From: Chloroflexota bacterium
GTDB taxonomy: Bacteria; Chloroflexota; Dehalococcoidia; DSTF01; RBG-16-68-14
Direction: 5' to 3'
DNA: 64,000 nt
NCBI GenBank assembly: GCA_022565155.1
Contig: JADFKB010000002.1
Coordinates: 5,955 to 69,954, forward strand
Shown here one piece after another: positions 49,174 through 56,606 of the stretch (position 1 is the stretch's first letter; each line of letters begins with the position of its first letter). The notes below the pieces were generated by a model. The model saw nothing but the letters and a program-made list of their open reading frames with translations. It searched no databases and was not told the DNA's origin. Position numbers and translations under genes: made by a program.

Positions 49174-50178
49174 ATGGCGACGTTTGTTGTCCTGGCCAGG
49201 TTGACTCCGGAGGGATACAAGCGGCTGGCGCGCGACCCGCAGCGGCTGGCCGCAGTCAACGCAGACGTGGAGCGCCTGGGCGGGCGCGTGCTGCGACAGT
49301 ACGCCGTCTTGGGCGAGTACGACCTCGTTACCTTCATCGATGTGGCGGATAACATCTCGGCGGCGAGCATCGCGGCGGAGATCAGCGGCCTGGGTACGGT
49401 GAAGCTGGAGCTGTTTCCGGCCATCGGCTTCGATCGCTTTGTAGAGCTGCTCAAGATTCGCTCGTATCGGACGGAGCCGCACACCTGGCAGACGCAGCCG
49501 TGGGCGCGCCTGCTGCGACGCGCCGGCCGCTACTGGGTGATGACGCGCCACGTCAATCGACTCTGCAAGCCGCTGACTGTCGAGGGCCGGGAGTTGCTGC
49601 GCGACGTGAAAGGGCCGGCGATCATCATCGCCAACCACACCTCTCACATTGATACGCTGGCGCTACTCACGGCGCTGCCGGGGCACCTGCGAGAGAAGTT
49701 GGCGGTGGCGGCGGCGGCGGATCGCTTCTACCGAACGTCGATGCGGAGCTGGTGGTTCTCGCTCTTCTGGAACACCTATCCGGTCGCCCGCGGCGGCGGC
49801 AAGGCCGCGCTCGATTACACGATGTCGCTGCTGGAGCGGAACTGGTCGATCGTCATCTTCCCGGAGGGCGGGCGATTCAAGCCCGGCCGGTTGCAGAAGT
49901 TTCGCCACGGGCCAACGATCATGGCGATGGAGGCGAAGGTGCCGGTGATTCCCGCCTACCTGGAGGGGCTGCACAAGCTGATGCCGCGAGGTCAGCGCAC
50001 ACCGTCACCGGGTCCCGCCAGCGTCCGATTCGGCGAGCCGGTGTCGCTGGCTGGCGTCGGGTCGATACCGGAGGGGACGAGCCTTCTGGAGCGCTCCGTC
50101 CGCGAGCTTGGCGGCCTGCCGATACGGGATGCTAAGGCAGAACCGGCCGCGGCCGGCGCAGAAGCTGGCCGGCGGTGA
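49174..50178 (+). CDS. GYD domain fused to 1-acyl-sn-glycerol-3-phosphate acyltransferase (PlsC-like)
   Basis: N-terminal MATFVVLARLTPEGYKRL...GEYDLVTFID GYD-like fold. Acyltransferase HxxxxD (NHTSHID) and FPEGGR motifs. Confidence 0.7.
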   Translation: MATFVVLARLTPEGYKRLARDPQRLAAVNADVERLGGRVLRQYAVLGEYDLVTFIDVADNISAASIAAEISGLGTVKLELFPAIGFDRFVELLKIRSYRTEPHTWQTQPWARLLRRAGRYWVMTRHVNRLCKPLTVEGRELLRDVKGPAIIIANHTSHIDTLALLTALPGHLREKLAVAAAADRFYRTSMRSWWFSLFWNTYPVARGGGKAALDYTMSLLERNWSIVIFPEGGRFKPGRLQKFRHGPTIMAMEAKVPVIPAYLEGLHKLMPRGQRTPSPGPASVRFGEPVSLAGVGSIPEGTSLLERSVRELGGLPIRDAKAEPAAAGAEAGRR

Positions 50179-50243: not shown

Positions 50244-50630
50244 TTAGCAGCAGGCCTTGGGCTCGCCGTGGCTCTCCGCGGTGTCGAAGCTGGAGCCGCA
50301 GGCGCAGCTCTTGACAGCGTTCGGGTTGAAGATGGTGAAGCCGCTCTTCATCACGTCCTCTACGTAGTCGATCTCGGCGCCCTTGAGCAGGGGGGCGCTC
50401 TCAGGGTCGACGAAGAGGCGGATACCGCCGTGCTCGATAATCAGGTCGTCCTCTTCGGCCTCCTGTGCCAACGCCATGCCGTACTGATAGCCGGAGCAGC
50501 CGCCGCCCGCGACGAACACGCGCAGAGCGCCCTGCTCGGTCTTCTTCTCCTTCAGCAGGTTCCTCACACGCTCGGTCGCAGCGTCGGTAATAGTCAGCAT
50601 CTCAGTTGCGGTATCTGTGTCGGTCGTCAT
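50244..50630 (-). CDS. Fe-S cluster insertion protein (IscA/ErpA/HesB family)
   Basis: GGGCSGYQY motif and a C-terminal CxC motif (SCACGSSF). Confidence 0.8.
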   Translation of the reverse strand: MTTDTDTATEMLTITDAATERVRNLLKEKKTEQGALRVFVAGGGCSGYQYGMALAQEAEEDDLIIEHGGIRLFVDPESAPLLKGAEIDYVEDVMKSGFTIFNPNAVKSCACGSSFDTAESHGEPKACC

Positions 50631-50679: not shown

Positions 50680-51384
50680 TTAGTATACCACGGGCTGCTG
50701 CGATGGCAAGTCCTGCGCGCTCCGCTCGATATCGGCGTCGCTGGCAGTACGCTCCCGCACACGATAGGCGCAGTAGCCGTCTTCGCCAATCGATTCAGGC
50801 TCCACATAGGTAACATCGGCTGCCAGCAGCGTCGAGAGCAGCCGCTGATCGTGGGCGCAGACCTGCCGATGCTTATCGGCGGCTCTGGGACAGGGGCAGC
50901 CGCGGCCGAGCAGCAGGTACTCGCCGTCCCGCTCTTCGATGTCGAAGTCGATGCCTTCCTCGTTCAGCGCCGCCGTCGTCGCGCGGACGCGCTCGGCGAG
51001 AGTGGAGCCGTGGACGTGCGGGGCGATGCGCTGGGCGAGCCGGTGGGCCATCTTTTCGAAGACCAGGTTCGCCAGCTCCACGCCGCTGCGCTCCGCGGTC
51101 TCTTCCGGCTCCAGCGCGACGATCTCTTCGATCATTCGGTTGGTGATGCGGACGTAGTGCTTGGGAAACAGGTCCTCGCCAGCCTCGCTCAGCGAGAAGA
51201 CGTAGTGCGGCCGGCCTGTTTTTCGCCGTACCTGCGCGACGTCGACGTGGCCGTCGCGGGCGAGGATGTCGAGGTGGCGGCGGACGGTCGCGGGGGCGAG
51301 GCCGAGCTCTTTGGTCAACTGATCGACCGTCGCCCGACGGCGCCGGCGCAGGATGCTGAGGATCGTTTGGCGGGTAGTTTCCAT
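50680..51384 (-). CDS. winged-helix (ArsR/DeoR-like) transcriptional regulator with Cys-rich C-terminal domain, SufR-like (start 51384 or 51414)
   Basis: N-terminal HTH TILSILRRRRRATVDQLTKELGLAPATVRRHLDILARDGHV. C-terminal Cys residues in CPCP and C..C context. Adjacent to Fe-S genes. Confidence 0.6.
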   Translation of the reverse strand: METTRQTILSILRRRRRATVDQLTKELGLAPATVRRHLDILARDGHVDVAQVRRKTGRPHYVFSLSEAGEDLFPKHYVRITNRMIEEIVALEPEETAERSGVELANLVFEKMAHRLAQRIAPHVHGSTLAERVRATTAALNEEGIDFDIEERDGEYLLLGRGCPCPRAADKHRQVCAHDQRLLSTLLAADVTYVEPESIGEDGYCAYRVRERTASDADIERSAQDLPSQQPVVY

Positions 51385-51481
51385 TGGGTAGGACGCCCCC
51401 TCATAGACGCCCATCCAGTATAGCGAGCCGCTTAGGCCCTGTTCAAGTAAATCATGCTATTTATGCTTTTTACCCCCGGCG

Positions 51482-51612
51482 ATGATGCGCCGCCGGACGC
51501 CTTCGAGGCCAGATTCAACGAACTTCGGTTGCCGTGTCTGCTGGCCGTAGAGCACCTCGTGGAACGGGCCGATCTGGAGGTAGCGGCTCTTACGGGCGAG
51601 CCTGAATCAGAC
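51482..51612. repeat. about 132 bp direct repeat, copy A (about 90% identical to 52612-52743)
   Basis: atgatgcgccgccggacgccttcgaggccagattcaacgaactt...gagcctgaatcagacg. Confidence 0.7.
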
Positions 51613-51743
51613 GCTAGGTATGGCCGAGCAAGCACTCGTTGTCTTAGGCCCTCATTGCTGTAGAATGAGGCCCTAAATCGAGGCACGAGAGATCGGCGGC
51701 GGGAGGGTTGGCAGGCCATATTCAATGAACAAGGAGGCACCGG

Positions 51744-52180
51744 ATGCTGCTCAGACGTCAGTCGGAGAAAATGGATGTGCTACAGAAGGTGCCGATCTTC
51801 CAGGGCCTCAGTGCACGCCACCTCAGGCTCATTGCGCGGGAAGCGGAAGAATTTCAAGGGCCGGCAGGCAAGATGCTCGCACGACAGGGGGACATGGGAA
51901 GGGAGTTCATCCTCATCCTGGATGGCAGCGCTCGTGTGGAGATTGACGGCAAGCAGATCGCTCGGTTGGGACCGGGCGACTTTTTCGGGGAGATGTCGGT
52001 CATTGACGGAAAGCTGAGGTCGGCCTCAGTGATCGCCGACACTCGGCTGGTCTACCTTGTCATTCACTGGGGGCTTTCTTGCGTCTACTTGAACGAGTGC
52101 CTGGTCTTTCGCGGAAGCTGCTGGTCGTGCTCTGTGGGCGGCTGCGCGACGCCGATGCTAGGCTCGCCGCCATGAACTGA
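51744..52180 (+). pseudogene. stand-alone cyclic-nucleotide-binding (cNMP) domain gene, apparently frameshifted near 52065-52075
   Basis: The domain reads cleanly (FQGLSARHLRLIAREAEEFQGPAGKMLARQGDMGREFILILDGSARVEIDGKQIARLGPGDFFGEMSVIDGKLRSASVIADTRLVYLVI). The expected C-terminal helix (FLRLLERVPGLSRKLLVVLCGRLRDADARL) continues in the -1 frame and ends at TGA 52178-52180. Confidence 0.5.
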
Positions 52181-52611
52181 CCGAGCCGGATAGAGGTGGG
52201 CATGTCACCTGTTCAACCGCCTGCTACCCGCCAGGGTGGTATCATGCCGGCCTGATGCGCGCACTCATCGCAGCCCTGATATTCATGCTCGCCGTCGCTG
52301 TGACCGCCAGCATCTTTGCGATGTGGCCTGTAGTTGGCGACGCCCCGTGGGAGGACGACGTGCCGATAGTCCAAGACGGGACTAACGAGCTTCGCTTACT
52401 GCTGAGGGTATGTCACCTCACAATCGCCAACGTAGTTCTCTTGCGGTGTTTGCGAACGCTGAAAAACGCGCGCGTGCTCCACTCCGACCACCGCAGCAGG
52501 AGGCGGCTGTGAGGCGGTTAGGGAGAAGCACGCCAGACGCTGCCTCGTTTCACGTTCAACGCTAGCGGCTGTCGTAATCCGCCGCGCATCTAATGCTCTT
52601 GATGTCTCCTC

Positions 52612-52743
52612 ATGATGCGCCGCCGGACGCCTTCGAGGCCAGATTCAACGAACTTCCGCTGTTGTGTCTGCTGGCCGTAGAGCACCTCGTGGAACGGGCC
52701 GATCTGGAGGTAGGCGCGGGCGTGGGTGAGCCTGATTCAGACG
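52612..52743. repeat. about 132 bp direct repeat, copy B
   Basis: See copy A. The copies are about 1.13 kb apart and flank the cNMP-binding pseudogene. Confidence 0.7.
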
Positions 52744-52933
52744 TTTAGTTCTGGCATGGGCGCGCTCTAGTCCGGCGCGTCCCCCTTTCTTATGCTGAGG
52801 GCTGGGTAGGAAAACTGCCCGGCTCTCAGCGCCTCGATAGATCGAGCGGCGTCACGACTCGGTGCGAAGCCCGCCGCTCGCCCGTTTGGTAGAATCCTGC
52901 GGATCGCACCGATGTTACACTCTCTAGAGAGGG

Positions 52934-53884
52934 TTGCTCATGCCGCTAACGAGTCAAGAAGAACGCTGTATCAATCTCGCGTGTAGCCACTTGGCAGGCG
53001 TCTATGGTGGTGCCTGGAAGGTGTCCGATGATTTGGATGAGCTGCATCAGAGCGAGGCGAGTCCGGAAGTGCGGGTTTCTAGCGGCGAGATGACGGCAGC
53101 AATCGAGGTCAAGCGGCTCGTAGGAGACGCACCGTTCATCGAATACCTCGAGAGCATGTTCTCGCTGGAGAAGTATCTCACTCCGTCTTGCGGAGGGTAC
53201 TACAGCCTGAACCCTGCCATCGACTTCCGCGTGCCGATGGAGCGCCCCTTTCGCCGTTACGTGAAGCGGGAGATTGAGCGAGTGGCGCCAACGCTTGCGC
53301 CTGAACAATCGGGCGCGATCCTAATCCGGCGTGAGGCTCATGTTTCTCTGGTCTCGGAGACCGGCCCTGGCTACATCTTCTGCTGCCACAACTCCAGTGG
53401 CCACTTCGTCATGGAGGTTTCCCCCCGATTGACCGGAAAGTTCATGCTCGTTGATGAGAGGATGTGGGAGCATTCATTCGTGACGGAAGAGGGAAAGCTT
53501 GCCTTCCAAGATGCTCTCGTGAAGGCGTGTGAGGCCAGACTGAACGGACACTTCGGGCCCTTCACTTGGAACGAGGAGTGGGAGCTGACGCGGGGAAACG
53601 AGGAAGGCGACGAGTCCGGCGTGTTTCTTATCACGGTCACGGACGCACGGAGCGTACCTGCGGCTGTCGCCGAGAATGTCGACATCATGCTCGACAAGGC
53701 GTTGGAGAAGTTCGAGGATCGGCGTTGGGCTGACCTACACGTAATTGTGCTCGACCGCGCCAGCGCACTGATGACAATCGATAGAGTCCACGACGTTCTC
53801 GCCGACGTCAGCGTGGAGAACTTCTCGTCAGTCGATCTCGTGCTCGCCACTGATGAAGATGACGTGACCCAGGTGTGGCCCTAA
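52934..53884 (+). CDS. hypothetical protein in a lower-GC islet; possible PD-(D/E)XK-type core motif (GEMTAAIEVKRL)
   Basis: Clean 316 aa ORF. Third-codon GC is visibly lower than in neighbours. There is an AIEVKR (D/E)xK-like segment after acidic residues. Confidence 0.45.
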   Translation: MLMPLTSQEERCINLACSHLAGVYGGAWKVSDDLDELHQSEASPEVRVSSGEMTAAIEVKRLVGDAPFIEYLESMFSLEKYLTPSCGGYYSLNPAIDFRVPMERPFRRYVKREIERVAPTLAPEQSGAILIRREAHVSLVSETGPGYIFCCHNSSGHFVMEVSPRLTGKFMLVDERMWEHSFVTEEGKLAFQDALVKACEARLNGHFGPFTWNEEWELTRGNEEGDESGVFLITVTDARSVPAAVAENVDIMLDKALEKFEDRRWADLHVIVLDRASALMTIDRVHDVLADVSVENFSSVDLVLATDEDDVTQVWP

Positions 53885-54050
53885 CGCAACACGAAACTAC
53901 GAGAGCACGTCTCGCCCTCGTTCTTTCTGCTACACTCCGTCGACTACAGAAGGAGGGCGCGCGGTGGACATCGTACGCGACGTTCGGTTATAGCGGCCTG
54001 CGTTGACGGCGTCGCTGGGCGGTTGCTACGTTGATTGAGAGAGTCGATCT

Positions 54051-55235
54051 ATGGATCAGCAGCGCATCTACGTCGATCACGCCGCGACGACGCCGCCCGA
54101 CCCGCGGGTCGTCGAAGCGATGCTGCCCTACCTGACGGAGCAGTGGGGCAATCCCTCCAGCATCTACTCGGAGGCGCGAGAGGCGCGCAAAGGCCTCGAA
54201 GCTGCCCGCCGCTCGGTGGCGGAGGCGCTGGGCGCGCGCCCGAACGAGGTGATCTTCACCAGCGGCGGCACGGAGAGCGATAACCTGGCGTTGCGCGGCG
54301 TCGCCTATGGCGCGCGCCGGCGCGGCAACCACATCATCACGACTAAAATAGAACATCACGCCATCCTGCACACGGCGGAGCGGCTGGAGCAAGAGGGCTT
54401 CCGCGTCACCTACCTGCCGGTAGACGGCGAGGGCTTCGTCGATCTCGACGCGCTGGAACGAGCGCTGGACGACGAGACGACGCTGGTCTCCGTCATGTAC
54501 GCGAGCAACGAAGTCGGCACGGTGCAGCCAATCGATGAGGTGGTGCGCATCGTCAAGGCCCGCGACTCCCATATCGCCGTGCACACGGATGCCGTGCAGG
54601 CGGCGGGCTACCTCGATCTCGCAGGCCTGGGTGTCGATCTGCTCTCCCTGGCCGGCCACAAGATCTACGGCCTGAAAGGTACGGGCGTCCTCTACGTGCG
54701 CAGCCGCACGCCGTTCCTGCCGCAGGCGCTGGGCGGCTCGCAGGAGAGAGACCGGCGCGCTGGGACGGAGAGTGTCGCGGGCGCGGTCGGCATGGCCGCT
54801 GCGCTGCGGCTGGCGGAAGACGAGCGCGCCCAGCGCAGCGAGCACGTGCGGGTGCTCCGCGACAGGCTGCTAGCGGAGCTGCCGCAGCGCGTGCCTGGCA
54901 CACACATCACGGGGCCGGCGGATGCTGATCGACGCCTACCGAACAGCTTCTCCTGCTGCTTCGAGCGTGTCGAAGGCGAGGCTGTGCTGCTCCAGCTCGA
55001 CTTGAAAGGCATCAGCGCCAGCAGCGGCTCCGCCTGCACGACGGGCTCGCTGGAGCCGTCGCACGTCCTGCTGGCGATGGGCGTGCCGCACGCGCTGGCG
55101 CGGGGCAGCCTGCGGATCACGCTGGGCCAGGGAAATACTGAGGGCGATATCGACCGGCTGCTGGACGTCATTCCGGACGCTATCGAGCGGCTGCGCGCGC
55201 TTGCGCCTCCCTCCGGCCGGAGCGTGCGGGCCTGA
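54051..55235 (+). CDS. cysteine desulfurase (IscS/NifS class I)
   Basis: PLP Lys context GHKIYGLKG and active-site SSGSACTTGS. Confidence 0.9.
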   Translation: MDQQRIYVDHAATTPPDPRVVEAMLPYLTEQWGNPSSIYSEAREARKGLEAARRSVAEALGARPNEVIFTSGGTESDNLALRGVAYGARRRGNHIITTKIEHHAILHTAERLEQEGFRVTYLPVDGEGFVDLDALERALDDETTLVSVMYASNEVGTVQPIDEVVRIVKARDSHIAVHTDAVQAAGYLDLAGLGVDLLSLAGHKIYGLKGTGVLYVRSRTPFLPQALGGSQERDRRAGTESVAGAVGMAAALRLAEDERAQRSEHVRVLRDRLLAELPQRVPGTHITGPADADRRLPNSFSCCFERVEGEAVLLQLDLKGISASSGSACTTGSLEPSHVLLAMGVPHALARGSLRITLGQGNTEGDIDRLLDVIPDAIERLRALAPPSGRSVRA

Positions 55236-55373: not shown

Positions 55374-56606
55374 TCAGTCAGGAGCGATCGCGAACGATTC
55401 CGGCGCAACTCTCTCGTAGGCGCCGGCTAGCTTGGCCGCGACAGCATCCCAGTTCAACTGATCCTCGATGCGTGAGCGGAGGCGCCGGCCTCGGGCGTCC
55501 CACTCGTGGCGAGCATGCAATGCTTCTAGGATTCCTTCAGCAAATGCCAACGGGCTTTCATTCTGGACGTAGTAGCCATCAGCGCCCAGCACCTCCCGAT
55601 TCCCTTCATTGTCTATGCTCACTACTGGCAGCGCCATGCTCATGTAGTTATAGAGCTTGGCATTGCCTTCAGTCTCGCTCAGCTTCGGAGCTACAGCCAG
55701 GTCGACCAACGCTAGATGATCCGGAGCCAACGCATAGTCGAGCCGGCCGGTGAATGTGATCCGCGACATGATTCGTAGTTCGTTCGCCAGCACACGTGGC
55801 TCTTCGTCCGGGTAGCCCATGATCAGGAAGTGACACTGAGGATGCGTCTGCAGCACGATCGCTGCCGCCCTGAGAAGCCGGTCGATGCCCTGTTGTTCGG
55901 TGAGCAACCCGATATAGCCGATGACGGTGGCATCGTCGTCGAGGTTGAGGCGATGCCGAAGTTCTGGGTCAGGCTGGCGGGGAGAGAACATGGCCGGATC
56001 GGCGCCGTCCATGACGCGGGAGATCCGGTTCGCATCGATCCCGAAGCGATCGGTGAGGTCGCGCTCCATCATCCGCGACTTGACGAGGATGAGCGGGGCG
56101 AGCCGGTTGATCCGCCGCTCTAGAAAGCTGATCGCCTTGAATGGGAGGGAACTTGTCTGAAAGGAGCCTTTCTCAGCCATCTCCAGCGACAGGCTTCCTT
56201 GAAGATCGAAGACCCAAGGAATGGCCAACAGGCGCGAGACTATGCCTGCGATGAGGCCACCTTCGTGGAGGTGTCCGTGCAGGAGAGCCGGACGAGTACG
56301 GCGAGCTACCAGAATCGTTTTGATAAGCAATAACACCCACAACGGAAGCCTTGCCAGCGAGGGGCCTATCTTGGAAGCCCCGTAGCCGGGGAATCGAGCG
56401 GCACGATGAATCCGCACGTCAGGTAGGTCGCGTCCGCTGGAATAGCAGACCACCTCCATCTGTATGCCTCGCCTAATGAGCGCCCGCGACTGCTCGTACA
56501 CGGCGACGCCGAAGCCCCGGTCGACGAAGAAGGGCCCCGGCGCGATCATCAGCACGGAGGGGTGTCTTGCTACAGGCTCGTCGACTACTCGATCAGTCGT
56601 TGGCAT
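55374..56606 (-). CDS. GT4 family glycosyltransferase
   Basis: GT-B fold with a C-terminal E...E motif region (SETEGNAKLYNYMSMALPVVS). Confidence 0.8.
   Translation of the reverse strand: MPTTDRVVDEPVARHPSVLMIAPGPFFVDRGFGVAVYEQSRALIRRGIQMEVVCYSSGRDLPDVRIHRAARFPGYGASKIGPSLARLPLWVLLLIKTILVARRTRPALLHGHLHEGGLIAGIVSRLLAIPWVFDLQGSLSLEMAEKGSFQTSSLPFKAISFLERRINRLAPLILVKSRMMERDLTDRFGIDANRISRVMDGADPAMFSPRQPDPELRHRLNLDDDATVIGYIGLLTEQQGIDRLLRAAAIVLQTHPQCHFLIMGYPDEEPRVLANELRIMSRITFTGRLDYALAPDHLALVDLAVAPKLSETEGNAKLYNYMSMALPVVSIDNEGNREVLGADGYYVQNESPLAFAEGILEALHARHEWDARGRRLRSRIEDQLNWDAVAAKLAGAYERVAPESFAIAPD

What the first reader, a model, noticed from the sequence alone, without database searches (positions are those of the whole stretch)
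51415..53990. Lower-GC islet inside the Fe-S locus, bounded by 132 bp direct repeats, with a frameshifted cNMP-binding gene and an orphan nuclease-like ORF
The IscA-like gene and a SufR-like regulator on one side are separated from the cysteine desulfurase on the other by about 2.6 kb. That segment holds two about 90% identical 132-bp direct repeats flanking a stand-alone cNMP-binding domain gene whose C-terminal helix is in the -1 frame. It also holds a small hydrophobic ORF (52255-52512) and a 316 aa protein with no recognisable family beyond an AIEVKR nuclease-like segment. All of it has visibly lower GC. This is the best candidate in the window for a recently acquired, undescribed accessory module, possibly a defense or signalling cassette inserted by repeat-mediated recombination.
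Basis: partly seen in the sequence, partly recalled or inferred. Interest (0 to 1): 0.65.

Follow-up and report, generated by a model that had tools for sequence, protein, structure and literature searches.

The report
Gene-swap hot spot with orphan nuclease
The spacer between two iron-sulfur genes of an uncultured Chloroflexota bacterium is a gene-turnover hot spot: its 132-base "repeats" are two leftover tails of a destroyed kinase-like gene, one passenger unit (a cyclic-nucleotide-binding gene and a small ORF) is decaying, and the only intact passenger is an uncharacterised nuclease-like gene.

Summary
Every item of the observation checks out: the 2.6-kb gap, the 132-nt direct repeats (89% identical), the cNMP-binding gene shifted to the -1 frame, the small hydrophobic ORF, the family-less 316-aa ORF, and the lowest GC in the window.

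The repeats are not insertion scars. On the minus strand, both are the last ~40 codons of an APH-family phosphotransferase gene. That gene is intact between nifS and sufR in four related Dehalococcoidia MAGs; a fifth has nifS and sufR adjacent.

The islet is not one module. Close relatives carry the cNMP unit without the 316-aa gene (L101), or the 316-aa gene without the cNMP unit and with a single repeat (L001, L002).

In the window both genes of the cNMP unit are broken: one G is lost from a G6 run, and 122 bp are deleted from a 90-aa ORF.

The 314/316-aa gene is intact. It has a confidently modelled N-terminal PD-(D/E)xK nuclease core and a C-terminal ~200 aa without a known fold. Its family is small (189 representatives among 1.84 billion), always solitary, and sits in unrelated contexts. 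Its synonymous divergence from the L001 lineage is about tenfold lower than that of flanking genes, so the cassette was exchanged recently.

Most of this is ordinary genome plasticity. The nuclease family is a modest, real lead.

The parts
50680..51414 (-). sufR-like regulator. The likely true start is METTRQ at 51384. It forms the left border of the variable spacer.
   Evidence: HTH_5/ArsR-type Pfam matches. TIGR02702 SufR_cyano E 1.9e-18, below that model's cutoff. Orthologs at 72-80% identity in six Chloroflexota/Dehalococcoidia MAGs.
51482..51613 (-). Repeat copy A: the 3' relic (last ~40 codons plus stop) of an APH-family phosphotransferase gene, directly upstream of sufR.
   Evidence: tblastn with the intact L011 gene hits 51600-51472 at E 1e-15, 70% identity, residues 271-313 of 313. 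The L011 and L012 genes match Pfam APH at E 1.6e-28 and 5.2e-30.
51744..52177 (+). Stand-alone cNMP-binding gene (145 codons when intact). It is inactivated by loss of one G in a G6 run (G5 at 52068-52072).
   Evidence: Intact 145-aa versions at 98%, 96% and 84% identity exist in other assemblies.
52255..52512 (+). Damaged copy of a 90-aa ORF with an N-terminal hydrophobic helix. A 122-bp deletion at 52396|52397 shifts the frame, so the C-terminal half is not native.
   Evidence: L101 has 122 extra bases (L101 1335-1456) and a 90-aa ORF at 1193-1465. That ORF has five other homolog clusters at 34-100% identity.
52475..52507 (.). 33-nt box, copy 1. It is a paralog of the box upstream of nifS.
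   Evidence: 30 of 33 positions match L001 3196-3228; local alignment score 51 against 16.1 +/- 2.4 in 2000 shuffles.
52612..52743 (-). Repeat copy B: a second copy of the same APH-gene relic.
   Evidence: tblastn hits 52721-52608 at E 2e-14, 76% identity. Its ends match those of copy A to the base, and it shares the in-frame TGA with copy A and the L001 copy.
52940..53884 (+). Intact 314-aa gene (316 aa if read from the TTG at 52934). It has an N-terminal PD-(D/E)xK nuclease core and a C-terminal ~200 aa of unknown fold.
52860..53910 (+). Low-divergence block around the 314-aa gene: the segment recently exchanged with the L001/L002 lineage.
   Evidence: About 14 differences in ~1050 nt against L001, with 10-14 differences per 50 nt just outside the block. 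dS is 0.018 for the gene, against 0.21 for nifS and 0.10 for iscA. Fisher p 1e-12.
53928..53960 (.). 33-nt box, copy 2, upstream of nifS.
54051..55235 (+). nifS-type cysteine desulfurase. It forms the right border of the variable spacer.
   Evidence: Pfam Aminotran_5 E 4e-78. TIGR03402 FeS_nifS E 5e-147 at 489.7 bits, just below that model's curated cutoff of 530.75.

Best explanation
The sufR-nifS spacer of this Chloroflexota (Dehalococcoidia-like) lineage is a gene-turnover hot spot, and the islet is a patchwork of independent events. It is not a machine.

Shown:
1. The usual occupant of the site in relatives is an APH-family phosphotransferase gene on the sufR strand. In this lineage only its last ~40 codons survive.
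2. That relic is present twice (the '132-bp direct repeats'). A 33-nt box from the nifS-proximal spacer is also present twice, in the same order. The spacer therefore holds two tandem frames of the form relic-cargo-box.
3. Frame 1 carries a 145-codon stand-alone cNMP-binding gene and a 90-codon ORF. Both are inactivated in the window.
4. Frame 2 carries an intact 314-aa gene.
5. Sister lineages carry only frame 1's cargo (L101) or only frame 2's cargo with a single relic (L001, L002).

Inferred:
1. A window-like two-frame state is ancestral to these alleles.
2. L001/L002 lost frame 1 by recombination between the two relic copies.
3. L101 lost the 314-aa gene by an illegitimate deletion that also removed the last 15 nt of relic B.
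4. The core of the 314-aa cassette (~1.05 kb) was recently re-exchanged between lineages.

Function of the only live gene (inferred): it is a metal-dependent PD-(D/E)xK endonuclease. Its catalytic residues would be E45, E58 and K60, with E9 on helix 1. The C-terminal ~200 residues most likely provide substrate recognition or regulation. It works alone, as a genome-conflict gene: either a single-gene defence nuclease or a selfish nuclease cassette. It has no functional tie to Fe-S cluster assembly or to the cNMP-binding gene.
For: Relic identity:
- tblastn of intact APH-like genes from L011, L010 and L012 hits both repeats on the minus strand (E 1e-15 to 1.7e-7) and nothing else in the window.
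- Those genes are Pfam APH.

Synteny:
- L011, L012 and L013 read nifS | APH | sufR-iscA-EVE-metH.
- L014 has nifS and sufR about 100 bp apart.
- L010 has 5.4 kb at the site, including APH and an IS200-like Y1 transposase.

Single origin of the two copies:
- The ends of the A-B similarity coincide to the base, and the copies share an in-frame TGA.
- A, B and the L001 copy are equidistant, at 14-15 differences each.

Alleles:
- L001 and L002 have one relic plus the 316-aa gene and no cNMP unit.
- L101 is 97.7% identical to the window. It has relic A, an intact cNMP gene, the 90-aa ORF, relic B up to window position 52728, 35 nt of filler, then the nifS-upstream sequence. It has no 316-aa gene.

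Decay of frame 1: G5 against G6 and the 122-bp deletion.

The 33-nt box is significantly duplicated.

Nuclease:
- pLDDT 94.2.
- The helix and strand order H7-24, E29-32, E46-49, E54-62, H66-81, E89-93 is the canonical core.
- P44, E58, V59 and K60 are invariant and E45 nearly invariant in 53 sequences.

The gene is solitary and sits in varied contexts. Some are beside integrases, IS elements, OLD-family, HNH or STAND genes. Others lie between housekeeping operons.

Recent exchange: dS 0.018 against 0.21 and 0.10 in the flanking genes, with sharp block edges.
Against: - The origin of the two-frame state is not resolved. Similarity of the sufR-proximal spacer next to copy B is not significant (p 0.40), nor is that of the distal nifS spacer. 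A whole-unit tandem duplication is therefore only partly documented.
- The three relic copies form a star tree, so the order of duplication and lineage split cannot be fixed.
- The allele comparisons rest on short metagenomic contigs (1.8-6.7 kb). The G5/G6 difference could be an assembly error in a homopolymer.
- No nuclease activity, target or phenotype is known for the family.
- Some members sit between housekeeping genes with no mobile or defence neighbours (L008, L098), so a cellular role is not excluded.
- No terminal repeats or target duplications were found to explain how the cassette moves.
Confidence: 0.72

Rival explanations
1. One reading: one recently acquired defence or signalling cassette, in which the cNMP sensor, small membrane protein and nuclease work together (Pycsar/CBASS-like logic). 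The cassette was inserted by recombination that created the flanking 132-bp repeats.
For: - The whole segment has low GC.
- The cNMP domain resembles the sensor domain of Pycsar effectors in PADLOC (E 1e-15).
- A nuclease-fold protein lies next to it.
Against: - The two halves occur separately in close relatives.
- No cNMP gene lies next to any other member of the nuclease family.
- There is no cyclase in the islet or in its adjoining genes, and tblastn with a Dehalococcoidia cyclase gave only one weak hit 35 kb away.
- The cNMP protein is the sensor domain alone, 145 aa.
- Its family normally sits beside a class III cyclase elsewhere in Dehalococcoidia genomes.
- Both frame-1 genes are broken in the window.
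- The repeats are a gene relic.
Confidence: 0.04
2. The window's two-frame state is derived, not ancestral. A circular or linear DNA carrying relic-cNMP-ORF90-box from a sister strain integrated by homologous recombination within the relic (Campbell-type). It entered an L001-like chromosome that already carried the 314-aa gene, and so created the direct repeats.
For: - Direct repeats flanking the extra 1130 bp are what single-crossover integration produces.
- Copies A and B differ mainly in two clusters, not evenly.
- L101-type and L001-type alleles occur in assemblies with neighbouring accession numbers.
Against: - L101, the window's closest relative, already has both relic copies without the 314-aa gene. 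It lacks the last 15 nt of copy B that the window and L001 share, which reads as a deletion from a two-copy state.
- A-B divergence (10.6%) is as large as the window-L001 neutral divergence (~11%), so the duplication is not recent.
- No donor allele with a single frame carrying the cNMP unit was found.
Confidence: 0.15
3. The 314-aa protein is a cellular DNA-repair or recombination nuclease (resolvase or NucS-like) of Chloroflexota. It is not a conflict gene.
For: - Some members sit between housekeeping genes, for example rpsF-ssb-rpsR in L008 and L009, and metabolic genes in L098.
- dN/dS is below 1.
Against: - The distribution is patchy and small: 189 representatives among 1.84 billion proteins.
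- The gene is absent from the 97.7%-identical L101 allele, and none of the six GTDB relative loci holds a copy near sufR.
- Every context is different, and several lie in IS-rich or defence-rich islands.
- One copy is split in an IS-rich region (L100).
- Synonymous divergence is tenfold lower than in the flanks, which indicates horizontal exchange.
Confidence: 0.15

Closest known systems
PD-(D/E)xK phosphodiesterase (restriction-endonuclease-like) superfamily. The structural neighbours here are the CdiA-CT toxin 4g6v, XisH 2okf, the type IIS enzyme PaqCI 8em1 and Hachiman HamA 8vxy.
   Same: - The N-terminal ~120 residues are modelled with the alpha-beta-beta-beta-alpha-beta core.
- They carry conserved acidic, acidic-x-Lys residues on strands 2 and 3 (E45; E58-V-K60), plus a conserved Glu on helix 1.
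   Different: - No sequence-level match to any Pfam, NCBIfam, PHROG, PADLOC or PDB family.
- PE replaces the usual PD.
- There is no methyltransferase, helicase, immunity or toxin-delivery partner.
Single-gene PD-(D/E)xK defence nucleases such as Shedu SduA (DUF4263) and type IV restriction enzymes
   Same: - A solitary nuclease-fold gene with patchy distribution, sometimes in defence or mobile islands.
   Different: - No DUF4263 or PADLOC match for any of 53 members.
- The domain order is reversed relative to Shedu, as far as I recall Shedu's architecture.
- No phage-defence phenotype is known.
- No member was found in phage, plasmid or IMG/VR collections.
Free-standing homing endonuclease genes
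   Same: - A ~1-kb single-gene nuclease cassette in intergenic spacers between conserved genes.
- Presence/absence polymorphism between near-identical strains.
- A cassette much younger than its flanks.
   Different: - No LAGLIDADG, GIY-YIG, HNH or His-Cys box motif.
- No co-conversion gradient in the flanks; the block edges are sharp.
- No conserved target site was identified, and the insertion contexts are unrelated.
Pycsar and CBASS cyclic-nucleotide defence systems
   Same: The cNMP-binding domain scores against the sensor part of Pycsar TIR effectors (E 1e-15).
   Different: - No cyclase gene and no effector domain; the protein is the sensor domain only.
- The gene is a pseudogene in the window.
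- It belongs to a widespread 145-aa Dehalococcoidia family that sits next to a class III cyclase in a different genomic context.
Direct repeats generated by mobile-element insertion (target-site duplications, att sites, integron attC)
   Same: Two ~130-nt direct repeats flank a 1-kb segment that is absent from relatives.
   Different: - The repeats are homologous to the 3' end of a resident protein-coding gene.
- They show no hairpin potential (z -0.6 to +1.4).
- No recombinase lies in the islet.
- There are no terminal inverted repeats.

Membership tests
PD-(D/E)xK nuclease superfamily (314-aa protein) | Core fold: alpha-beta-beta-beta-alpha-beta | tested here: met
PD-(D/E)xK nuclease superfamily (314-aa protein) | Catalytic signature: an acidic residue at strand 2 and (D/E)xK on strand 3 | tested here: met
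   P44, E58, V59 and K60 are invariant and E45 nearly invariant in 53 sequences at 38-84% identity. These positions fall on predicted strands E46-49 and E54-62. The assignment of roles is by position, not by superposition.
PD-(D/E)xK nuclease superfamily (314-aa protein) | Metal-dependent phosphodiester cleavage | not testable with these tools
   Needs biochemistry.
Shedu (SduA) single-gene defence | DUF4263-type nuclease domain recognised by Pfam or PADLOC models | tested here: not met
   No Pfam or PADLOC family matched more than one of the 53 members, each match at E >= 0.013.
Pycsar / CBASS | A nucleotide cyclase gene adjacent to the sensor-effector gene | tested here: not met
   No cyclase among the ORFs of 48-58 kb. 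tblastn with a Dehalococcoidia cyclase gives only a weak hit to its hydrolase part at 16.5 kb.
Pycsar / CBASS | An effector domain (TIR, transmembrane, nuclease) fused to the cNMP-binding domain | tested here: not met
   The repaired protein is 136-145 aa, and its only Pfam match above the curated threshold is PF00027, covering residues 31-109. All close homologs are 144-146 aa.
cNMP-binding domain proteins (PF00027) | Match to the cNMP_binding profile above the curated threshold | tested here: met
In the window the gene is interrupted.
APH phosphotransferase family (PF01636), for the repeats | Homology of the repeats to a gene that matches the APH profile | tested here: met
   The L011 and L012 genes match PF01636 at E 1.6e-28 and 5.2e-30. 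Their C-terminal 38-43 residues align to both repeats at 50-76% identity, with E from 1e-15 (L011) to 1.7e-7 (L012). The kinase domain itself is absent from the window.
Insertion sequence / transposon (314-aa cassette) | Terminal inverted repeats and target-site duplication around the gene | tested here: not met
   No inverted or direct flank repeats were shared across 11 loci. The only case, a 76-nt inverted copy of the gene's own 3' end in L008/L009, is not found elsewhere.
Integron cassette array | attC-type imperfect hairpins at cassette borders and an IntI integrase | tested here: not met
   The repeats do not fold better than shuffles on either strand. They are coding-gene relics. No recombinase lies in the islet or its immediate flanks. 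The whole 64-kb window was not scanned for integrases.
Structured RNA (riboswitch or leader) for the repeats | Match to an Rfam family or significant folding | tested here: not met
   No Rfam hit at gathering score in the whole window. The only hit in the E-value mode is an unrelated lncRNA model at E 2.2. Folding z-scores are not significant.

The most novel reading that the evidence does not exclude
The 314-aa protein would represent a new, Chloroflexota-restricted family of solitary PD-(D/E)xK nucleases with a C-terminal domain of novel fold. The family would travel as a ~1.05-kb single-gene cassette and sweep between diverged lineages. It would be either a new kind of free-standing homing-type nuclease or a new single-gene anti-phage system. 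Variants fused to a further ~280-aa unknown domain would point to modular target recognition.
Probability: 0.25. Interest if true: 0.55.

Novelty: new member of a known kind. Interest (0 to 1): 0.33.

Why it matters
The islet itself is ordinary. It shows that a pair of "direct repeats bounding a low-GC islet" can be duplicated relics of the gene that used to live there, and that such repeats can become substrates for deletion, not footprints of insertion. It also documents three co-existing alleles of one intergenic hot spot in an uncultured lineage.

What may matter is the 314-aa family. It has a confidently folded, catalytically intact PD-(D/E)xK core and two thirds of its length has no known fold. 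It carries no annotation anywhere. It shows presence/absence polymorphism between near-identical strains, and a clear signal of recent horizontal exchange. Uncultured Chloroflexota are poorly sampled for defence and selfish elements, so this family is a small, testable candidate.

Tried and rejected
- Rfam, whole window at gathering score and the islet at E <= 5: nothing relevant.
- Plus-strand small ORFs in the repeats (69 and 51 aa). Their apparent protein-level conservation in L010 and L011 is the antisense of the APH C-terminus.
- attC-like or RNA structure in the repeats: folding is no better than in shuffles.
- Hairpin at 51644-51676 upstream of the cNMP gene: it is unique in the window, and the region's folding z-score is -1.2.
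- Terminal repeats around family genes: none shared.
- The repeat is not part of the nuclease cassette elsewhere: blastn of the islet against the family loci held at that point (L003-L009) found nothing.
- Donor allele for the cNMP unit in JGI metagenomes: the best hit is 54% identical and shares no neighbours.
- Phage, plasmid and IMG/VR searches for the nuclease family: no match.
- PDB sequence-profile search: nothing below E 0.5. Foldseek against PDB gave only weak Hjc hits (E 0.16).
- AFDB Foldseek was not available.
- Pfam on the 520-680-aa fused variants: no domain in the extension.
- Extension of the duplicated unit into the sufR-proximal spacer and the distal nifS spacer: not significant (p 0.40 and 0.44). 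I dropped the claim of a complete unit duplication.
Full report
**1. Observation**

The window holds iscA (50244-50630, minus strand) and a sufR-like regulator (50680-51414, minus strand). They are followed 2.6 kb later by a nifS-type cysteine desulfurase (54051-55235, plus strand).

- Repeats. A 132-nt direct repeat lies at 51482-51613 and 52612-52743, 89% identical. It has no further copy in the 64 kb and none is expected by chance.
- cNMP gene. Between the copies is a cNMP-binding gene starting at 51744. Its reading frame moves to -1 near 52068. An intact homolog aligns in two frames, 51783-52064 and 52073-52177. The lesion is one missing G in a G6 run.
- 316-aa ORF. ORF 52934-53884 has no match in Pfam, NCBIfam, PHROGs or PADLOC.
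- GC. The segment has GC 0.593, against 0.643 +/- 0.019 for stretches of equal size. It is the lowest in the window. GC3 is 0.71-0.72, against 0.83-0.89 in the flanking genes.

**2. What the repeats are**

I searched one genome per species with the SufR-like protein. This returned six Chloroflexota/Dehalococcoidia MAG loci at 72-80% identity. The synteny metH-EVE-iscA-sufR and nifS is kept, but the sufR-nifS spacer varies:

- L014: about 100 bp.
- L011, L012 and L013: about 1 kb.
- L010: 5.4 kb.

In L011, L012, L013 and L010 the spacer holds a ~310-aa gene on the sufR strand. The L011 and L012 copies were scanned and match Pfam APH, the phosphotransferase enzyme family, at E 1.6e-28 and 5.2e-30. 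L010 adds two more genes and an IS200-like Y1 transposase.

The C-terminal 38-43 residues of these APH-like proteins align to both window repeats on the minus strand (copy A E 1e-15, copy B E 2e-14). They align to nothing else in the window. The "repeats" are therefore two copies of the 3' relic of the gene that normally occupies this site.

The copies have identical ends and a shared in-frame TGA, which is also present in the single copy of L001. That points to one truncation event followed by duplication. The plus-strand mini-ORFs in the repeats are the antisense of this relic. The repeats have no Rfam match and no folding signal.

**3. Three alleles**

- L001 and L002. These ENA contigs carry a 98%-identical copy of the 316-aa protein and are about 94% identical in DNA. 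They read iscA, sufR, one relic, the 316-aa gene, nifS. They lack window 51614-52611. L001 has a scaffold gap inside sufR.
- L101. This contig is 97.7% identical to the window. It reads sufR, relic A, an intact 145-aa cNMP gene, a 90-aa ORF, relic B up to window position 52728, 35 nt of unrelated sequence, then the nifS-upstream sequence. It lacks the 316-aa gene. It has 122 bp that the window has lost at 52396|52397.

The window's "small hydrophobic ORF" is thus a frameshifted remnant of the 90-aa ORF. That ORF has a handful of homologs. Both genes of the cNMP unit are broken in the window.

A 33-nt box after the 90-aa ORF (52475-52507) is a significant paralog of a box upstream of nifS (53928-53960). 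Each cargo therefore sits between a relic on the left and a box on the right. Further extension of this duplication into the neighbouring spacers is not significant.

The three relic copies (A, B and L001) are equidistant at 14-15 differences each. This is about the neutral divergence between the window and L001 (11%).

The most economical history is inferred, not shown. A two-frame ancestor like the window gave rise to both other alleles. The L001 lineage lost frame 1 by recombination between the relic copies. L101 lost the 316-aa gene by an illegitimate deletion, which also removed the last 15 nt of relic B. The alternative, Campbell-type integration of the cNMP unit, is kept as a rival.

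**4. The cNMP unit**

The repaired protein is a stand-alone cNMP-binding domain. It belongs to a large family of 144-146-aa proteins in Dehalococcoidia at 57-66% identity. In a complete genome this family lies between an AhpC-type gene and a hydrolase-class III cyclase gene.

The window copy has no cyclase nearby and no effector domain. The PADLOC similarity to Pycsar effectors covers the sensor domain only. The exact frameshifted 143-aa ORF and the 85-aa ORF are on record from one 80,020-bp NCBI contig of a "Chloroflexi bacterium" MAG. A 264-aa form from the 316-aa gene's 90% cluster is on record from a contig of the same length, under the adjacent locus tag IIC90_00755. This identifies the source of the window.

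**5. The 314/316-aa gene**

Homologs start at MPL..QE, so the likely start is the ATG at 52940.

- Family size. The family has 108 clusters at 90% identity, all "hypothetical", and the named ones are Dehalococcoidia or Chloroflexota. An exhaustive profile search finds only 189 representatives among 1.84 billion proteins, many of them fragments.
- Conserved residues. P44, E58, V59 and K60 are invariant. E9, D35 and E45 are nearly invariant. Further invariant residues are C150, H180, F182, T184, W212, E214, E215, K259, F260, W265 and A266.
- Context. No member has a Pfam or PADLOC match. Some members carry an extra ~280-aa C-terminal extension with no known domain. The gene is always solitary, and its neighbours never repeat. 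Examples:
  - L003: an integrase, STAND and HNH island.
  - L096: IS elements and an OLD-family gene.
  - L007: next to a helicase-PLD gene.
  - L100: an IS-rich region, where the gene is split.
  - L006: between the rib genes and prfB.
  - L008 and L009: after rpsF-ssb-rpsR.
  - L098: among metabolic genes.
- Mobility. It is not found in phage, plasmid or IMG/VR collections. No terminal repeats are shared among loci.

**6. Recent exchange**

Between the window and L001 the gene differs at 12 of 951 positions (dS 0.018). nifS differs at 88 of 1185 (dS 0.21) and iscA has dS 0.10 (Fisher p 1e-12). The low-divergence block runs from about 52860 to 53910. On both sides it is bordered by spacer that differs at 10-14 positions per 50 nt.

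The cassette core has therefore been exchanged between lineages long after they diverged. The diverged but homologous upstream spacer (52744-52860) argues that the gene was already at this site in their common ancestor.

**7. Verdict**

The islet is a real, variable, low-GC accessory region. It is not a coherent defence or signalling module, and the repeats are not insertion footprints. It is a hot spot where a resident APH-family gene was destroyed and its 3' relic duplicated. Two unrelated cargos were then gained and lost independently.

In the window the cNMP unit is dying. The PD-(D/E)xK gene is intact, mildly constrained (dN/dS about 0.5 on very few changes) and recently exchanged. I commit to this gene being a solitary metal-dependent endonuclease acting in genome conflict, either as defence or as a selfish cassette. 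Its activity, target and the role of its C-terminal domain remain untested.

I rate novelty as a new member (an unannotated family) of a known superfamily, and interest as modest.

Noticed in passing
window 49174-50178: A GYD-domain/acyltransferase fusion gene lies between the EVE-domain gene and iscA. In all five GTDB relatives that cover this stretch, EVE and iscA are adjacent, so this is a second lineage-specific insertion in the same neighbourhood. L001 shares it.
   Followed up: partly
L010 4563-10001: At the same sufR-nifS spacer this MAG carries 5.4 kb: a 302-aa protein, a 792-aa multi-pass membrane protein, the intact APH-like gene, and an IS200-like Y1 transposase directly upstream of sufR. 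This is independent evidence that the spacer is an insertion hot spot.
   Followed up: partly
L008 7811-7886 and 8947-9022 (also L009): A 76-nt, 95% complementary inverted copy of the nuclease-family gene's own 3' end plus 50 nt downstream lies about 115 nt upstream of the gene. It looks like the relic of a second, inverted copy. Other loci of the family do not have it.
   Followed up: partly
P0121, P0126, P0131, P0114 (596-683 aa): Some family members are fused to a ~280-330-aa C-terminal extension. The extension has conserved motifs (for example KGPFVD..NW and W.ILG) and no Pfam domain. It may be a modular partner domain.
   Followed up: partly
L103 5001-6853 (CP070630.1, Dehalococcoidia): The 145-aa stand-alone cNMP-binding family sits directly upstream of an alpha/beta-hydrolase-guanylate/adenylate cyclase fusion gene and downstream of an AhpC-type peroxiredoxin. 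This is a probable native signalling pair. A second contig, L104, keeps the AhpC neighbour.
   Followed up: no
window 51446-51460; L001 ~1850-1870; L011 ~1670-1690: A motif AAGCATAAA(A/T)AGC lies between the APH stop codon and sufR. It is conserved between the window, L001 and the distant L011, but has decayed next to repeat copy B. It is adjacent to a sigma-70-like promoter match for sufR (51446-51417, minus strand) and could be a promoter element or operator.
   Followed up: no
window 55374-56606: The glycosyltransferase (GT4-type) gene downstream of nifS also has low GC3 (0.70). In L014, nifS is followed by a GT2 homolog and no GT4 homolog was detected there. The right flank of nifS may also be variable.
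   Followed up: no
window 53928-53960 versus 52475-52507: The internal copy of the 33-nt box is closer to the nifS-upstream box of L001 and L101 than the window's own nifS-proximal copy is. The window's functional-position copy has therefore changed at about 8 positions.
   Followed up: partly
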